This document shows positions 1,413-31,572 of a DNA stretch of 64,000 nt, piece after piece. The DNA lies in NCBI GenBank assembly GCA_947653235.1, contig CANTGH010000001.1, forward strand, positions 247,191-311,190, given 5' to 3'. How positions within the stretch are numbered: the stretch's first letter is position 1; each line of letters begins with the position of its first letter. Below the pieces are notes generated by a model. It saw only the letters and a program-made list of their open reading frames with translations, made no database searches and was not told where the DNA came from. The translations under genes and the position numbers were made by a program. This DNA comes from an uncultured Clostridium sp. Lineage in GTDB: Bacteria; Bacillota; Clostridia; TANB77; CAG-508.

Positions 1413-1480
1413 TACTTTTTTTTACTTTTATGAAATTTTTATTTTTCGTTTCAAAAATCCTATTTTTATTAAAAATAACA

Positions 1481-1556
1481 AAAAAAGACCGAGCTTAATA
1501 AAAGTTCGGTCTTTTCTTTATTTTAACATATTTACGTAACTTTGTCAATAATCTGC
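1481..1556. repeat. Hairpin-plus-promoter repeat, copy R1 (bidirectional terminator hairpin 1487-1511 with flanking A/T runs)
   Basis: AAAAAAGACCGAGCTTAATAAAAGTTCGGTCTTTTCTT is nearly identical to the hairpin at 31497-31530. On the minus strand it is preceded by TTGACA-17-TAAAAT (1520-1548), which starts about 30 nt after the stop of the M23 peptidase gene. Confidence 0.6.
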
Positions 1557-2515: not shown

Positions 2516-3658
2516 CTACAAATTAATAACTTGTTCCCAAGGCAAATCTGGTTTTCCAAAATGCCCATAATTGGTGGTTTTTCGATAAATTGGTTTACGC
2601 AAATTCAGTGTGTTCATAATGCCTCTTGGTGTCAAATCAAATGTTTTTTCAATCTTTTCGATGATTTCCTCTTCTGGAATTGTAGCTGTTCCAAAAGTAT
2701 CCACCAAAATAGAAACTGGTTTGGCAACACCAATCGCATAAGAAAGCTGAATTTCACATTTTTTCGCATAGCCATTTGCTACGACATTTTTAGCAACAAA
2801 TCTTGCCATATAACAAGCACTACGATCTACTTTGGTAGGATCTTTTCCCGAAAACGCACCACCACCGTGACGACTATATCCGCCATAAGTATCCACAATA
2901 ATTTTTCTTCCTGTTAATCCACTATCTCCCAAAGGTCCACCAATGACAAATCGTCCTGTTGGATTAATATAATATTTTGTGTTTTCATCTAATAATTCTT
3001 CTGGCACAATCGCCTCAATAACTTTTTCTTTGACATCTTTTTTCAAAACCGTCAAATCCGTGTCTTGCGTATGTTGTGTCGATACCACAATCGTATCTAC
3101 ACGAACTGGCTTATCGTCTTCATATTCTACAGTAACTTGCACTTTACCATCTGGTCTTATGTAATCCATTATGCCCTGTTTTCTAACTTCTGTCAATCTT
3201 TTTGATAATTTGTGAGCTAAATCAATTGGCATTGGCATAAAATCTGCTGTTTCATCTGTGGCAAAGCCAAACATCATGCCTTGATCACCTGCACCTTCTG
3301 ATTCTATCTTTTCTCCTTCTTTGTCTTCATATGACTTATCCACACCTAGTGCAATATCTGGGGATTGCTTTGAAATATTAATCAAAACCTTACATGTTGC
3401 ATAATCAATATCCACTTCCTTTTCATGATATCCCACTTCTTTGATGGCATCCCTTACCACTTTTTCTAAATCCACTTCTGCAATAGATGTAATTTCTCCT
3501 GTTAACAAAATTTGCCCTTTCCCAGCAACCGTTTCACAAGCCACTCTTGCATAAGGGTCTTTTTCAAAATAGCTATCTAAAACACTATCGGATATAAAAT
3601 CACATAATTTGTCTGGATGCCCCTCTGTTACACTTTCTGACGTAAATAATTTTTTCAT
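2516..3658 (-). CDS. metK: S-adenosylmethionine synthetase
   Basis: 380 aa. [20 protein letters not shown]... and [16 protein letters not shown] are hallmark MetK motifs. Confidence 0.97.
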
Positions 3659-3702
3659 TTTAAACTTCCTTTCTTGGTTTGATTTATGTTACAAGATTTT
3701 TG

Positions 3703-3850
3703 GCAAAAAAACCTTTGCAAAATGCAAAGGTTAACATTTCGATTTTAAAAATCATCAGCCAAAGCATTGCTTTGTCGGTATTAGCACCTTAAAAATTCAG
3801 GTTGCTGTGGAGTCATAAAGCCGATTCTCTCGTCCACTCTTGATAACATA
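3703..3850 (-). promoter_or_regulatory. SAM-I (S-box) riboswitch with terminator, upstream of metK
   Basis: The minus strand reads TTATCAAGAGTGGACGAGAGAATCGGCTTTATGACTCCACAGCAACC...AAGGTGCTAATACCGAC, which matches the S-box core (YUAUCAAGAG...GGCAACC...GGUGCUAA). The terminator hairpin AACCTTTGCATTTTGCAAAGGTT plus a T-run follows. Confidence 0.85.
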
Positions 3851-3858
3851 TTTTTGTT

Positions 3859-3887
3859 ATTTTATAATTTTTTAGATAGCTTGTCAA
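3859..3887 (-). promoter_or_regulatory. Sigma-A type promoter for the metK leader
   Basis: The minus strand reads TTGACA, a 17-nt spacer, then TAAAAT, immediately upstream of the S-box. Confidence 0.55.
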
Positions 3888-4011
3888 TAGTTCCTAAATA
3901 AAAAATTAGCTTTTTTCTATTTACTACTGTAATTAAACAAATAGAATGTTATAATCCTGATACTTTATTTTATCGAATTGCTATTATTCAAAAGCAAAAT
4001 TTCCCTAATAA

Positions 4012-4130
4012 AACATAAAAACACAGCCTTTCTAAAGGCTGTGTTGCGATTATGTCGCAAAATAGCAAACGAAAGAAAAAACTAAAAAATCGGGATAATT
4101 TTTTGCTATTTTCGTAAAAAATCCTCTACC
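4012..4130 (-). ncRNA. Candidate small RNA (about 115 nt) with its own promoter and terminator, class unknown
   Basis: It lies downstream of a consensus promoter (-35 at 4158-4163, -10 at 4135-4140). No ATG-initiated ORF is present. Three predicted hairpins are seen: CGAAAATAGCAAA/TTTGCTATTTTGCG, TTGCGA/TCGCAA, and the terminator ACACAGCC...GGCTGTGT followed by a T-run. Confidence 0.45.
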
Positions 4131-4206
4131 TTTTATTATATCACATTTACGTTAATTTGTCAACTTGACTTTTTGTAAAAACCTGCTCTCACTTGATTTT
4201 ACTCTG
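4116..4206 (-). repeat. Promoter-bearing intergenic repeat, copy A
   Basis: It shares CCTC(T/C)ACCTTTTATTATATCAYATT...GTCAA(C/G)TTGAC...TGCTCTCACTTGWTTTTACT with copies at 38438-38527 and 50038-50128. It begins about 15 nt after the polA stop codon. Confidence 0.7.
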
Positions 4207-4220
4207 GTTTTTGGCTTTTT

Positions 4221-6908
4221 TTATTTTGTTTCAAACCAATTTTGTCCTTCCTGCAAATCTACTTCTAAATCAACTAACAAGTTCGCTGCTTTTTGCATAC
4301 AAGTTTTCAAAATTTGGCTGACTTCCTCTTTTTCCCTTTCTAATGCTTCTATAATCAATTCGTCATGAATTTGCAGTACCATTTTAGATTGCAACTTTCG
4401 TTTTTTTAGTTCTCGGTAGACATCAATCATCGCAATTTTCATAATATCTGCTGCGGTTCCTTGAATGGGTGCATTCATAGCCGCTCTATCTCCGAATTTA
4501 CGAACCATATAATTATTGGAACTGATTTCTGGAATGTATCTCCTGCGATGAAACATTGTCTCTACATAGCCATTTTGCTTTGCTTTTTCAATTTCTTGCT
4601 CCATAAATTTTCCAATTCCATGATATTGCTCTAAATAAGAATCAATATATTGTTTTGCTTCTTTTCTACTAATTCCTAGCTGTTCTGCCAACCCAAAATC
4701 ACTGATACCATATACAATACCAAAATTGACTGCTTTGGCATGACTTCTCATTTCCTTTGTCACTTCTTCAACTGGAACACCAAATACTTGCGAAGCACAA
4801 ATTTGATGAATATCATGATGTGCTGTAAATGCCTTTATCATCCCTTCATCTTGCGACATATGAGCCAAAATGCGAAGCTCAATTTGAGAATAATCCGCAT
4901 CTAAAAAAACTTTGCCTTTTTCAGCTTTAAATAATTTTCGAATTTGTTTTCCTAAGTCTGTTCTTGTTGGAATATTTTGCAAATTCGGATCCGTACTGCT
5001 AAGTCTTCCAGTTGCTGCAACAGTTTGGTGAAATGTTGTATGAATACGGTTCGTTTTTGGATTAATATAGGGTAACATGCCTTCGACAAATGTCGAATTT
5101 AATTTTGAAACTTGCCTGTAAAACAAGACTTTTTCAATTATTGGATGTGTATTTCTCAATTTTTCTAAAGTGTCAACATCTGTTGAATATCCATTTTTGT
5201 TTTTCTTTTTATATGGCAATTCTAGTTTTTCAAATAAAATTTCGCCTAACTGTTTGGGTGAATTGATATTAAATTCTTGACCAGCTAATTCATAAATTTC
5301 ATGACTTAATCCTTGAATCTGCTTTTTCAATTCTTGTGACATTTTTTCAATGTCGTCTTTATCTACTAAAACACCTGTATAACGCATTTGTGCTAGAATT
5401 TCTGCACTTGGCATTTCAATATTTCGAAATAAATCTAATTGTTTTACTTCTTTTAATTTTTGCTCTAAAATCAGCTTTGTTTCTCCGATTATGTAACAAT
5501 ACATAGCATATTTATAATCTGTTTTTTCTTCTTGAATTTCTTGATCAAAAAAGCTAGTTTGTATATCTTCTTTTGGTTCTTGCTGATAATAATCTTCTAT
5601 TTCTAGGTTTAACTGTTGTTTTGCAATTTCCTCTAAAGAATACAAATTGGATCCAGAATTTAATAAATACATAGCAATTTTGGCATCAAACATCATATTT
5701 TGCGGATTTAGTCCAGCTTGTTTTAATAAGATAAAATCCTCTTTTATTTCATATCCACATTTTAAAATTTCATTATTTTCAAAAATTGGTTTAAAAATTT
5801 CATTATCAAACGGAACACAATATACTTTTTTTTCAGATTTTAAGTAAAGATTTATTGTTTCAATTTTCTTTTTTATGATGAAAGCATCTGGATCCTCTAT
5901 CAATTCGAAATAATAGTATATTTCTTTTTGTTCATAAATTTTATCTAGTATTGACTGGGGTTGATTAGTAGGAATATAAATAAATAAATCTTCAAGCTTT
6001 TTAGTTGGCTCATTTTCTTCACTTTCTAACTGAAAACGTTCGATAAAGCGCTTAAATCGTAATTCTCTGAATAATTCTAAAACCGCAGGCTTATTCCAAT
6101 CTTGCACTTGAAAGGTAGCTAAATCTTTTTCAATGGGTGCTTTTTTATCAATGGTGCCAAGTGTTCTGGAAAGATAGGCTAATTCTTTATTTTCTAATAA
6201 TTTTTCTTTTTGTTTTCCTTTGATTTGTGTATCACCATTCTCAATAGCTTCATATAATTGGTCAATATTTTTGTATTTTTGTATTAGGTTTAAAGCCGTC
6301 TTTTCGCCAATTCCAGGTACACCAGGGATATTGTCTGAGGCATCTCCCATTAATCCTTTAACTTCGATTAATTGTTCTGGTATAATACCATAAGTTTCGA
6401 AAATTTTATTGGCGTCAAAATCTTCCGTTTCTGTTTTTCCTTGTTTGGTTCTAGGAATACGAATAATAACTGTATCTTTCGCCAGCTGAAATGAATCTCT
6501 ATCACCTGTTAGCAAAATAACTTTTAACCCTTGCTGTGCTCCCCAATCACTTAATGTTCCTAAAATATCATCTGCCTCATAACCTGATTTTTCAATGATT
6601 TTTAAGTTCATCGCCTCTAACACTTTTTTTATAATTGGCATTTGAGCCGCTAATTCATCTGGCATTCCTTTACGTGTTCCTTTGTACTGACTGTACATTT
6701 CATGCCTCTTGGTTGGTGATTTTACATCAAAGGCAACAACCAAATATTCTGGTTTTTCATCTTCTAAAATACGAAACAAAATCGTCAAAAAACCATAAAC
6801 TGCATTGGTATAAGTTCCATCTGCTGTCTGTAGCATTTTACTTCCCATGATGCCATAAAAAGCTCGATTTAAAATACTATTCCCATCAATTACAATCAAT
6901 TTCTCCAA
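4221..6908 (-). CDS. polA: DNA polymerase I
   Basis: 895 aa. It has the 5'-3' exonuclease N-terminus (VIDGNSILNRAFYG) and the Pol A palm motifs (DYSQIELRILAH, QIHDELI). It uses a TTG start after GGGAGG. Confidence 0.96.
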   Translation of the reverse strand: MEKLIVIDGNSILNRAFYGIMGSKMLQTADGTYTNAVYGFLTILFRILEDEKPEYLVVAFDVKSPTKRHEMYSQYKGTRKGMPDELAAQMPIIKKVLEAMNLKIIEKSGYEADDILGTLSDWGAQQGLKVILLTGDRDSFQLAKDTVIIRIPRTKQGKTETEDFDANKIFETYGIIPEQLIEVKGLMGDASDNIPGVPGIGEKTALNLIQKYKNIDQLYEAIENGDTQIKGKQKEKLLENKELAYLSRTLGTIDKKAPIEKDLATFQVQDWNKPAVLELFRELRFKRFIERFQLESEENEPTKKLEDLFIYIPTNQPQSILDKIYEQKEIYYYFELIEDPDAFIIKKKIETINLYLKSEKKVYCVPFDNEIFKPIFENNEILKCGYEIKEDFILLKQAGLNPQNMMFDAKIAMYLLNSGSNLYSLEEIAKQQLNLEIEDYYQQEPKEDIQTSFFDQEIQEEKTDYKYAMYCYIIGETKLILEQKLKEVKQLDLFRNIEMPSAEILAQMRYTGVLVDKDDIEKMSQELKKQIQGLSHEIYELAGQEFNINSPKQLGEILFEKLELPYKKKNKNGYSTDVDTLEKLRNTHPIIEKVLFYRQVSKLNSTFVEGMLPYINPKTNRIHTTFHQTVAATGRLSSTDPNLQNIPTRTDLGKQIRKLFKAEKGKVFLDADYSQIELRILAHMSQDEGMIKAFTAHHDIHQICASQVFGVPVEEVTKEMRSHAKAVNFGIVYGISDFGLAEQLGISRKEAKQYIDSYLEQYHGIGKFMEQEIEKAKQNGYVETMFHRRRYIPEISSNNYMVRKFGDRAAMNAPIQGTAADIMKIAMIDVYRELKKRKLQSKMVLQIHDELIIEALEREKEEVSQILKTCMQKAANLLVDLEVDLQEGQNWFETK

Positions 6909-31492: not shown

Positions 31493-31572
31493 AAACAAAA
31501 AAAGACCGCACTTAATAAACATTCGGTCTTTCTTATATTATACCATACTTTAAATCAATTTGTCAAGCTTTC
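31493..31572. repeat. Hairpin-plus-promoter repeat, copy R2
   Basis: AAAAAAGACCGCACTTAATAAACATTCGGTCTTTCTTA is a near copy of 1481-1520. On the minus strand it is preceded by TTGACA-18-TATAAT (31537-31566), starting 15 nt after the stop of the CorC-like gene. Confidence 0.6.

What the first reader, a model, noticed from the sequence alone, without database searches (positions are those of the whole stretch)
4012..4130. Copy A of the promoter element drives a free-standing, terminator-bounded transcript of about 115 nt (candidate sRNA)
From the predicted start near 4128 to the terminator (4021-4044 plus T-run) the minus strand has no start codon or RBS. It folds into three hairpins, including a 13-bp stem. 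The segment lies between polA and the independently promoted metK riboswitch, so it is not a leader of either gene.
Basis: seen in the sequence. Interest (0 to 1): 0.55.

Follow-up and report, generated by a model that had tools for sequence, protein, structure and literature searches.

The report
Short non-coding unit behind polA
A near-perfect promoter sits between the end of the DNA polymerase I gene and that gene's only terminator, so it should make a roughly 110-base non-coding RNA; only the promoter cassette, the RNA's first ~18 bases and the presence of a terminator are conserved, not the hairpins, so this is an ordinary-looking unverified small-RNA candidate.

Summary
They are a 12/12 sigma-70-type promoter with an extended -10 (4163-4135, minus strand), about 110 nt with no credible ORF, and a strong intrinsic terminator (4045-4020 plus T-run). 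The metK SAM riboswitch downstream has its own promoter, which is conserved in relatives.

The unit is not fully free-standing. polA has no other terminator, so the RNA lies inside the polA 3' UTR.

Conservation is partial. One other species (L009) has the same cassette directly after polA, followed at once by an unrelated terminator, giving an RNA of about 50 nt. The window's middle hairpins are therefore a species-specific insert, and without the terminator they fold no better than shuffled sequence (z = -1.3). No Rfam family matches.

The promoter belongs to a roughly 95-bp cassette with an invariant GTGAGAGCA block. I found it in three full copies here and in two other species.

At least five units in this 64-kb window place a promoter directly before a terminator. 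Close relatives have a plain stop-then-terminator at the same places.

My verdict is a plausible small RNA embedded in the polA 3' UTR. Expression and function are untested. Interest is moderate to low.

The parts
4221..6908 (-). polA (DNA polymerase I, 895 aa). The stop codon TAA is at 4223-4221, and no terminator lies between it and the promoter.
   Evidence: ORF list, Pfam domains on the identical gene in L001, terminator scan.
4184..4207 (-). Upstream block of the cassette (CAGAGTAAAATCAAGTGAGAGCAG), centred about 65 nt upstream of the start. GTGAGAGCA is invariant in all five full copies.
   Evidence: The stretch TAAAATCAAGTGAGAGCAG is 19/19 identical to L009. Five-copy alignment A4. nhmmer hits.
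4135..4168 (-). Core promoter. A GTCAAGTTGAC palindrome holds the -35 TTGACA (4163-4158). A 17-nt spacer ending in TGA follows, then the -10 TATAAT (4140-4135).
   Evidence: 12/12 match with extended -10. Conserved in L009 (12/12).
4113..4134 (-). Start region and conserved 5' end of the RNA (AAAAGGTAGAGGATTTTTTACG). It has a G-rich stretch followed by a U-run, and the predicted start is at 4130-4126.
   Evidence: Aligned with L009 (AAAAGGTAGGGGAATTTTT) and with copies C and E (AAAAGGTGAGGGTATTTTT).
4046..4112 (-). Window-specific body. It holds a long hairpin (11-bp arms 4112-4102 and 4069-4059, 32-nt interior) and a 4-bp hairpin (4058-4046). It is absent from the L009 orthologue.
   Evidence: Folds. 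Alignment gap against L009. No other copy of the arms in the window.
4010..4045 (-). Intrinsic terminator (stem-loop 4045-4020, U-run 4019-4010). It ends both the short RNA and the polA mRNA, and works in the minus-strand direction only.
   Evidence: Terminator scan. The plus-strand flank after the hairpin is not T-rich.
3859..3887 (-). Separate metK promoter P2 (TTGACA-17-TAAAAT). It is outside the unit and marks its downstream boundary.
   Evidence: The same promoter position occurs before the riboswitch in L140 and L145.
3749..3849 (-). SAM-I riboswitch aptamer of metK. Its own terminator is at 3732-3710 and the metK CDS is at 3658-2516.
   Evidence: Rfam RF00162, 74 bits against a gathering score of 44.4. 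Terminator.
38414..38529 (-). Paralogous copy C. Block, 11/12 promoter and AAAAGGTGAGGGTATTTTT are followed at once by a terminator (38437-38414), giving an RNA of about 45 nt. A second promoter (38385-38357) and recD2 follow.
   Evidence: The orthologue in L168 has the same terminator stem.
50040..50129 (-). Paralogous copy E, 89% identical to C. Here it is the promoter of a DUF5665 gene (49971-49687) with no terminator in between.

Best explanation
The segment is a small, separately promoted, non-coding transcription unit embedded in the 3' UTR of polA.

**How it is built.** A maximal-strength housekeeping-sigma promoter is wedged between the polA stop codon and the only terminator. It has a perfect -35, a 17-nt spacer, an extended -10 and an A/T-rich upstream stretch. 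RNA polymerase starting at about 4130-4126 should stop at 4020-4010 and release an RNA of roughly 105-115 nt. polA transcripts end at the same terminator.

**The cassette.** The promoter is one copy of a roughly 95-bp cassette. Its parts are the block ...GTGAGAGCA..., a palindromic -35, the -10, and the start region AAAAGGTrrGGG.ATTTTT. The cassette is kept in at least three related species.

**What selection appears to hold.** The cassette, the first ~18 nt of the RNA (a G-rich stretch then a U-run) and the presence of a terminator are conserved. The middle hairpins are not.

**Inferred, not shown.**
- If the RNA acts in trans, it does so through its single-stranded 5' end next to a U-run, hairpin and U-tail.
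- The invariant block, and the similar sequence over the start site 64 bp away, are binding sites of an unknown regulator.
For: - **Promoter and terminator quality.**
- **No other terminator after polA.**
- **No credible ORF.**
- **Orthologue in L009.** L009 is P0017, with 77% polA identity, and three independent assemblies are identical. Homology to the window begins right at the polA stop codon. The block is 19/19 identical, the -35 region is fully identical, and the stretch from TGATATAAT to the T-run is 27/29 identical. polA coding DNA is 77% identical overall and 72% in its last 100 nt.
- **No downstream gene in L009.** There the unit faces a convergent MatE gene. The promoter cannot be serving a downstream gene, yet it is conserved.
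- **Copy C.** It has the same layout and is conserved in L168, terminator stem included.
- **Cassette definition.** Alignment A4 and nhmmer recover exactly these full-length copies at E of 1e-19 or better.
- **Promoter-before-terminator units.** They are frequent in this window and rare in about 195 kb of relatives.
- **Fit to known definitions.** The layout matches the classical definition of an sRNA gene, with its own promoter and a Rho-independent terminator (PMC9438474). From my own knowledge, it also matches 3'-UTR sRNAs that have their own promoter and share the mRNA's terminator.
Against: - No expression data of any kind are available.
- The RNA body is neither conserved nor more structured than chance.
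- No Rfam family matches.
- Only one of about nine related species examined keeps the unit after polA.
- A search for complementarity between the 5' end and 59 translation start regions found nothing above shuffled seeds. That test has low power.
- A second family of promoter-before-terminator units (1548 and 31566) has almost no 5' tail. This hints that the RNA sequence may not be what matters.
- The conserved 5' end overlaps the promoter's start region, so its conservation may reflect DNA-level constraint only.
Confidence: 0.55

Rival explanations
1. The promoter-terminator unit works at the level of transcription, and the RNA product is irrelevant. One version is an insulator or roadblock at the gene boundary. 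Another is a loading pad from which terminated polymerase re-initiates at the nearby gene-proximal promoter (here the metK promoter about 130 nt downstream).
For: - At least five such units lie in 64 kb. In the four co-directional units the promoter is wedged between an upstream stop codon and the only terminator, and a second promoter and a gene follow.
- The 1548/31566 family yields an RNA that is little more than a hairpin.
- Relatives have a plain stop-then-terminator at the same sites.
Against: - No precedent is established for such a role in Firmicutes. Polymerase recycling after termination is known to me only from in vitro single-molecule work (own knowledge).
- In L009 no co-directional promoter or gene follows.
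- Nothing here measures an effect on the neighbouring promoter.
Confidence: 0.15
2. P1 is an auxiliary upstream promoter of metK. The terminator at 4045-4020 would then be a conditional attenuator, giving tandem-promoter control in series with the SAM riboswitch.
For: - metK follows in the same orientation.
- Copy E of the same cassette drives a gene directly.
- Copies C, 1548 and 31566 also precede co-directional genes.
Against: - The L009 orthologue is followed by a convergent gene, not by metK.
- The terminator is canonical and strong, and I found no alternative antiterminator pairing.
- metK keeps its own promoter, which is conserved in relatives that lack P1.
- About 130 nt of unconserved A/T-rich DNA separates the terminator from P2.
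Confidence: 0.12
3. The unit is an evolutionary leftover. It would be the promoter of a lost HAD-hydrolase/uridine-kinase operon, stranded next to a terminator. Relatives have that operon between polA and metK. The short RNA would be a functionless by-product.
For: - L140, L145, L008 and L013 have polA, then a promoter (TTGACATTTTATGTAAATTATGTTAyAAT), then the HAD hydrolase gene. In L140 and L145 udk, the riboswitch and metK follow.
- The window lacks both genes at this locus.
Against: - blastn and tblastx found no relic of HAD or udk in 3850-4225.
- The window's promoter carries the extra ~50-nt block that those promoters lack.
- Together with the block it is conserved in L009, at a level equal to or above coding DNA, despite saturated divergence.
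- Paralogous copies C and E exist.
Confidence: 0.1
4. The segment encodes a very small protein on either strand.
For: - An SD-like AGAGGA lies at the 5' end.
- Open frames of 21-35 codons exist.
Against: - No ATG, GTG or TTG lies at a workable distance from the SD-like sequence.
- The frames start at TTG without an SD sequence and run through the terminator.
- No frame is conserved in L009 or in copies C and E.
Confidence: 0.03

Closest known systems
sRNAs embedded in an mRNA 3' UTR that have their own promoter and share the mRNA's terminator (enterobacterial DapZ and MicL are the textbook cases)
   Same: The promoter lies at the 3' end of an upstream gene and there is no intervening terminator. 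The short RNA and the mRNA end at the same intrinsic terminator. The RNA has a single-stranded 5' end followed by a U-rich stretch, a hairpin and a U-tail.
   Different: The promoter here lies after the stop codon rather than inside the coding sequence. The organism is an uncultured low-GC member of the Clostridia. No chaperone, target or expression is known. The body of the RNA is not conserved between species.
Spot 42 RNA (spf, Rfam RF00021) of gamma-proteobacteria
   Same: Spot 42 is also a small non-coding RNA gene with its own promoter, and polA is its nearest upstream neighbour (PMC3295665). From my own knowledge it is about 109 nt long, similar in size to this RNA.
   Different: There is no sequence or structure homology. 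RF00021 gave no match even at E up to 10. The phylum is different. The resemblance is one of position and size only, and is most likely coincidence.
Classical intergenic sRNA gene (own promoter plus Rho-independent terminator, as used in the early sRNA screens)
   Same: It has its own promoter and a Rho-independent terminator, is about 100-200 nt long and lies between ORFs (definition in PMC9438474).
   Different: Sequence conservation, the usual extra hallmark, holds only for the promoter cassette and the first ~18 nt. The unit also doubles as the end of polA.
Small dispersed promoter-bearing repeats (for example the Correia elements of Neisseria)
   Same: It is a roughly 95-bp sequence present in several copies per genome, located at gene boundaries and carrying an outward-firing promoter. 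Its core is partly palindromic (one search shows reverse-strand self-hits over profile positions 22-66).
   Different: I saw no terminal inverted repeats at the ends of the unit and no target-site duplication. The copy number is low. Two copies sit at orthologous sites in different species, which fits inheritance rather than recent mobility.

Membership tests
Classical sRNA gene (independent non-coding gene) | Own promoter | tested here: met
   12/12 consensus with extended -10. It is conserved in L009. This is prediction only; no transcript start has been mapped.
Classical sRNA gene (independent non-coding gene) | Rho-independent terminator at the 3' end | tested here: met
   An 11-bp stem with 5 G-C pairs plus a U-run at 4045-4010.
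Classical sRNA gene (independent non-coding gene) | No protein-coding potential | tested here: met
   No start codon with an RBS, and no frame conserved in L009 or the paralogues.
Classical sRNA gene (independent non-coding gene) | Sequence or structure of the RNA conserved in related genomes | tested here: inconclusive
   The first ~18 nt and the presence of a terminator are conserved in L009. The ~75-nt body with two hairpins is absent there. Seven other related species lack the unit after polA.
Classical sRNA gene (independent non-coding gene) | A discrete transcript detected | not testable with these tools
   No transcriptome data are accessible.
3'-UTR-embedded sRNA with its own promoter | Promoter at or inside the 3' end of an upstream co-directional gene, with the terminator shared with that mRNA | tested here: met
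   The polA stop is at 4221. No terminator-like site lies before 4045-4020. The same is true in L009.
Spot 42 (RF00021) | Match to the family covariance model | tested here: not met
   RF00021 is absent from the list of matches at E up to 10 for 3600-4300 and from the gathering-threshold scan.
Spot 42 (RF00021) | Located immediately downstream of polA | tested here: met
   Searches give the position here. PMC3295665 gives the spf position.
Any Rfam 15 family | Score at or above the gathering threshold in 4012-4130 | tested here: not met
   The best overlapping matches are ncr1015 (19.7 bits against 60), SSRC34_2 (18.6 against 48) and mir-980 (17.5 against 47). They appear to be driven by the terminator.
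SAM-I riboswitch leader of metK | Being part of the transcript that carries the aptamer | tested here: not met
   The aptamer is at 3849-3749 and has its own promoter at 3887-3859, which is conserved in L140 and L145. A strong terminator lies in between.
Miniature mobile repeat (MITE-like) | Terminal inverted repeats and target-site duplication | tested here: not met
   The cassette ends (CAGTAAAA... and ...GGGTATTTTT) are not inverted repeats. The flanks of copies C and E show no duplication.

The most novel reading that the evidence does not exclude
This organism may carry a genome-wide set of promoter-before-terminator mini-units.
- There are at least five in 64 kb, in two repeat families. 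In the four co-directional units the promoter is wedged between an upstream stop codon and the terminator.
- Close relatives have a plain terminator at the same sites.
- The units could form a new kind of system in one of two ways.
  - They could be a family of minimal 35-110-nt RNAs under one regulator that binds the invariant GTGAGAGCA block.
  - They could be transcription-level devices, such as polymerase loading pads or insulators, that tune the neighbouring promoters.
Probability: 0.2. Interest if true: 0.6.

Novelty: new member of a known kind. Interest (0 to 1): 0.35.

Why it matters
If the RNA is real, it adds a small-RNA candidate in an uncultured gut lineage of the Clostridia, where almost nothing is known about RNA regulators. 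It would also be an example of an sRNA whose promoter and first few bases are conserved while its body turns over.

The broader pattern is the more useful lead. Several near-consensus promoters fire straight into terminators at gene boundaries, and two small repeat families are involved. Existing metatranscriptomes could test cheaply whether such units are abundant short RNAs or silent DNA elements.

As a single locus the finding is unremarkable. Orphan promoter-terminator pairs are the standard signature of bacterial sRNA genes.

Tried and rejected
1. **Metagenome scan.** I used the pattern CAAGTGAGAGCAN{18,24}TTGAC, which was too loose. Of 120 hits, 119 were chance matches and only L110 (the L009 species) was real. 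This spent the only metagenome scan.
2. **Viral contig scans.** Scans for the block and for the start-region motif gave chance hits or none. There is no sign of phage origin.
3. **Relic of lost genes.** blastn and tblastx of 3850-4225 against the relatives found no trace of HAD or udk.
4. **Rfam.** I ran the gathering threshold on the whole window and E-value mode on three sub-regions. No family matches this unit or copy C.
5. **Small ORFs on both strands.** Rejected.
6. **Seed-target search.** I compared the conserved 5' ends with 59 start regions. The best energies (-15.0 and -14.1 kcal/mol) fell within the shuffled-seed distribution.
7. **Recent transfer between species.** I compared polA DNA identity along the gene. 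It does not rise towards the 3' end (72% in the last 100 nt), so recent exchange of the cassette between the window species and L009 is not supported.
8. **Known operator and alternative-sigma motifs.** I compared these with the block by eye (CtsR, CIRCE, LexA, CodY, Spo0A, the Spx AGCA element, and sigma-B, -E, -F, -G and -K). None fits in sequence and position. This was a comparison from memory, not a test.
9. **Reiterative-transcription or NTP-sensing attenuator of the pyrG type.** I rejected this because the 5' strands of the terminators are not pyrimidine-rich.
10. **Second-arm promoter.** The other arm of the palindrome has TCTCAC where a -10 would be. It is therefore not a housekeeping-sigma promoter in copies A, C and E, although it is one in copy B.

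Full report
**What is at the locus**

The following reads along the minus strand.
- polA (895 aa) ends with TAA at 4223-4221.
- No terminator-like site follows the polA stop codon until 4045-4020.
- In between lie four features.
  - A conserved block, CAGAGTAAAATCAAGTGAGAGCAG (4207-4184).
  - A sigma-70-type promoter that matches the consensus at all 12 positions. It has a 17-nt spacer and the extended -10 TG: TTGACA 4163-4158 and TATAAT 4140-4135.
  - About 110 nt without a credible reading frame.
  - An 11-bp, 5-G-C stem-loop followed by a U-run.
- About 130 nt further on, the metK promoter (3887-3859, 11/12) precedes a SAM-I riboswitch (3849-3749, 74 bits), its terminator, and metK.
- The whole intergenic region is identical in five independent assemblies of the same organism, so it is not an assembly artefact.

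- The long stem is 11 bp, not 13.
- The fold significance (z = -4.95) comes almost entirely from the terminator. The 85-nt body alone gives z = -1.31.

**Is it known?**

No Rfam family reaches its threshold here. The best overlapping matches (ncr1015 19.7 bits, SSRC34_2 18.6, mir-980 17.5) are all far below their gathering scores of 47-60. Spot 42 is the classic small RNA gene next to polA in gamma-proteobacteria (PMC3295665). It does not match, so the resemblance is one of position and size only.

**What the 'promoter element' is**

The window has 26 promoters within one mismatch of the consensus. Many share a spacer of the form AAwTTAyGTAAATATGn, which also occurs in relatives. The likeness of copies B (47.3 kb) and D (44.2 kb) to copy A is therefore largely this lineage's general promoter consensus.

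Copies A, C (38.5 kb) and E (50.1 kb) share more. The common unit is a roughly 95-bp cassette made of these parts:
- the upstream block;
- a GTCAA-N-TTGAC palindrome that holds the -35;
- the extended -10;
- the start region AAAAGGTrrGGG.ATTTTT.

Other properties of the cassette:
- A profile built from it finds exactly these copies and their orthologues at E of 1e-19 or better. It finds only partial matches at B and D.
- GTGAGAGCA is invariant in all five full copies from three species.
- The block and the start region resemble each other (AAGTGAGAGCATATTTTT and AGGTGAGGG-TATTTTT) and lie 64 bp apart. This pattern would suit two operator sites, but that is my inference.
- C and E are 89% identical to each other. 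All other pairs are 68-76% identical, whether orthologous or paralogous.

**Conservation of copy A**

I searched for relatives through polA. The closest are only about 82% identical in protein.

| Loci | polA identity | What follows polA |
|---|---|---|
| L140 (also L145, L008, L013) | 82% (77-74%) | ordinary promoter, HAD-hydrolase gene; in L140 and L145 then udk and the metK riboswitch |
| L142, L006 | 80% | a different gene |
| L143 | 79% | a terminator, then a TetR-family gene |
| L163, L164 | 79%, 77% | another gene, with no intergenic gap |
| L009 (P0017; L165-L167 and L110 are identical copies) | 77% | the same cassette as the window |

Details of the L009 orthologue:
- Homology with the window starts at the polA stop codon.
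- The block is 19/19 identical and the -35 region is fully identical.
- The stretch from TGATATAAT to the T-run is 27/29 identical.
- The cassette then runs directly into an unrelated 11-bp terminator, giving a predicted RNA of about 50 nt.
- A convergent MatE gene follows.

polA coding DNA between the two species is 77% identical overall and 72% in the last 100 nt. The cassette blocks are therefore at least as constrained as coding sequence, and there is no sign of recent exchange.

The window's extra ~75 nt, which holds the long hairpin and the 4-bp hairpin, has no counterpart in L009. I found no trace of the HAD or udk genes in the window's intergenic region.

**Conservation of copy C**

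I searched through recD2.
- L168 (85% identical) has the orthologous cassette between the same two genes. The block, an 11/12 promoter, a diverged start region and the same terminator stem (CGGAAATAAT...ATTATTTCCG plus U-run) are present, followed by the recD2-proximal promoter.
- L169 and L170 (81%) have the same gene order, but only a terminator and the proximal promoter. L171 (83%) lacks the cassette too.

At both loci the cassette therefore sits between an upstream stop codon and that gene's terminator. Relatives have a plain stop-then-terminator at the same place.

**A recurring layout**

At least five near-consensus promoters in the window are followed within about 25-105 nt by an intrinsic terminator, with no gene in between.
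- Copy A.
- Copy C.
- B' (47354, plus strand), which fires into the hairpin that also ends a convergent gene.
- 1548, upstream of the S10 operon's own perfect promoter.
- 31566, upstream of spoIIID.

The last two are about 80% identical over roughly 95 nt, promoter and hairpin included. They form a second repeat family.

The same rules applied to about 195 kb of relatives recover only the L009 copy, plus a few weak and probably chance hits. After the M23 peptidase gene, relatives have the terminator directly.

**Interpretation**

The best-supported reading is a short, separately promoted, non-coding RNA embedded in the polA 3' UTR that shares polA's terminator.

The strongest argument that the promoter exists for this short unit is L009. 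There the promoter is conserved but nothing co-directional follows it.

Conservation does not support a structured RNA with three hairpins. Only the 5' ~18 nt and a terminator are kept. Those 18 nt overlap the promoter's start region, so DNA-level constraint could explain them.

A seed-target scan within the window was uninformative.

The rivals are these:
- a transcription-level role for promoter-terminator units, suggested by the hairpin-only second family;
- an auxiliary promoter and attenuator for metK, contradicted by L009 and by the conserved metK promoter;
- a stranded promoter of the lost HAD-udk operon, contradicted by the conservation and by the extra block;
- a micro-ORF, for which there is no support.

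**Verdict**

This is a new, unverified member of a well-known kind: an sRNA candidate with its own promoter and a shared terminator. The surrounding pattern of promoter-before-terminator cassettes is the more interesting lead. Expression data would settle the question.

Noticed in passing
window 1475-1548 (-) and 31495-31566 (-): This is a second repeat family, about 80% identical over roughly 95 nt. A near-consensus promoter is followed at once by the hairpin AAGACCGAA..TTTATTAAG..CGGTCTT plus T7, giving a predicted RNA of about 40 nt. One copy lies between the M23 peptidase stop and the S10-operon promoter at 1412. The other lies between a 434-aa ORF and spoIIID. Relatives have a plain terminator after the M23 gene. 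No Rfam family matches the 1000-1620 region that holds the first copy; the second copy was covered only by the whole-window gathering scan.
   Followed up: partly
window 47308-47395, both strands: Two promoters lie back to back and share a palindromic -35 (ATCAACTTGACT). The minus-strand one (B) points towards a second promoter and a class-II glutamine amidotransferase gene. The plus-strand one (B') fires straight into the hairpin GGGGGTAAAATCGATATTTTACCCCC, which also ends the convergent 558-aa gene (47425-49101).
   Followed up: partly
window 44192-44236 (+): A perfect 12/12 promoter (copy D) sits between two convergent genes, a holin-like gene at 43596-44087 (+) and a polysaccharide deacetylase gene at 44339-45184 (-). 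It points into the 3' end of the deacetylase gene, so it would make an antisense RNA. The equivalent spacer in relative L143 has no such promoter.
   Followed up: partly
window 47190-47263 (-): Between an 11/12 promoter (47263) and the glutamine amidotransferase gene (47186-46260) lies the hairpin AATGATAGGAAC...GTTCTATCATT followed by ATTTTT. It looks like a leader terminator or attenuator. No Rfam hit occurs at the gathering threshold.
   Followed up: no
whole window; for example 1548, 11875, 27190, 45766, 47352 (-): Promoters in this organism and its relatives share more than the two hexamers. They also share a spacer of the form AAwTTAyGTAAATATGn. The window has 26 promoters within one mismatch of the consensus, seven of them perfect. 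I estimate about 0.2 perfect sites by chance from composition.
   Followed up: partly
window 3660-4220 compared with L140 12690-14570 and L145 12690-14585: Relatives have a HAD-family hydrolase gene and a uridine kinase gene between polA and metK. The window species has neither at this locus, and no detectable remnant. The gene order downstream of polA differs in almost every related species examined.
   Followed up: yes
window 4059-4112 (-): The long hairpin of the candidate RNA has 11-bp inverted arms (AAAATAGCAAA and TTTGCTATTTT) around 32 nt. It is absent from the L009 orthologue, so it looks like a small insertion bounded by inverted repeats. No other copy occurs in the window.
   Followed up: partly
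window 49972-50040 (-): In the 5' UTR made by cassette copy E, a 12-bp hairpin (ACGCCATTCTAT...GGGATGGTGT) covers the Shine-Dalgarno region of the DUF5665 gene. The fold of the 100-nt leader gives z = -5.0.
   Followed up: no
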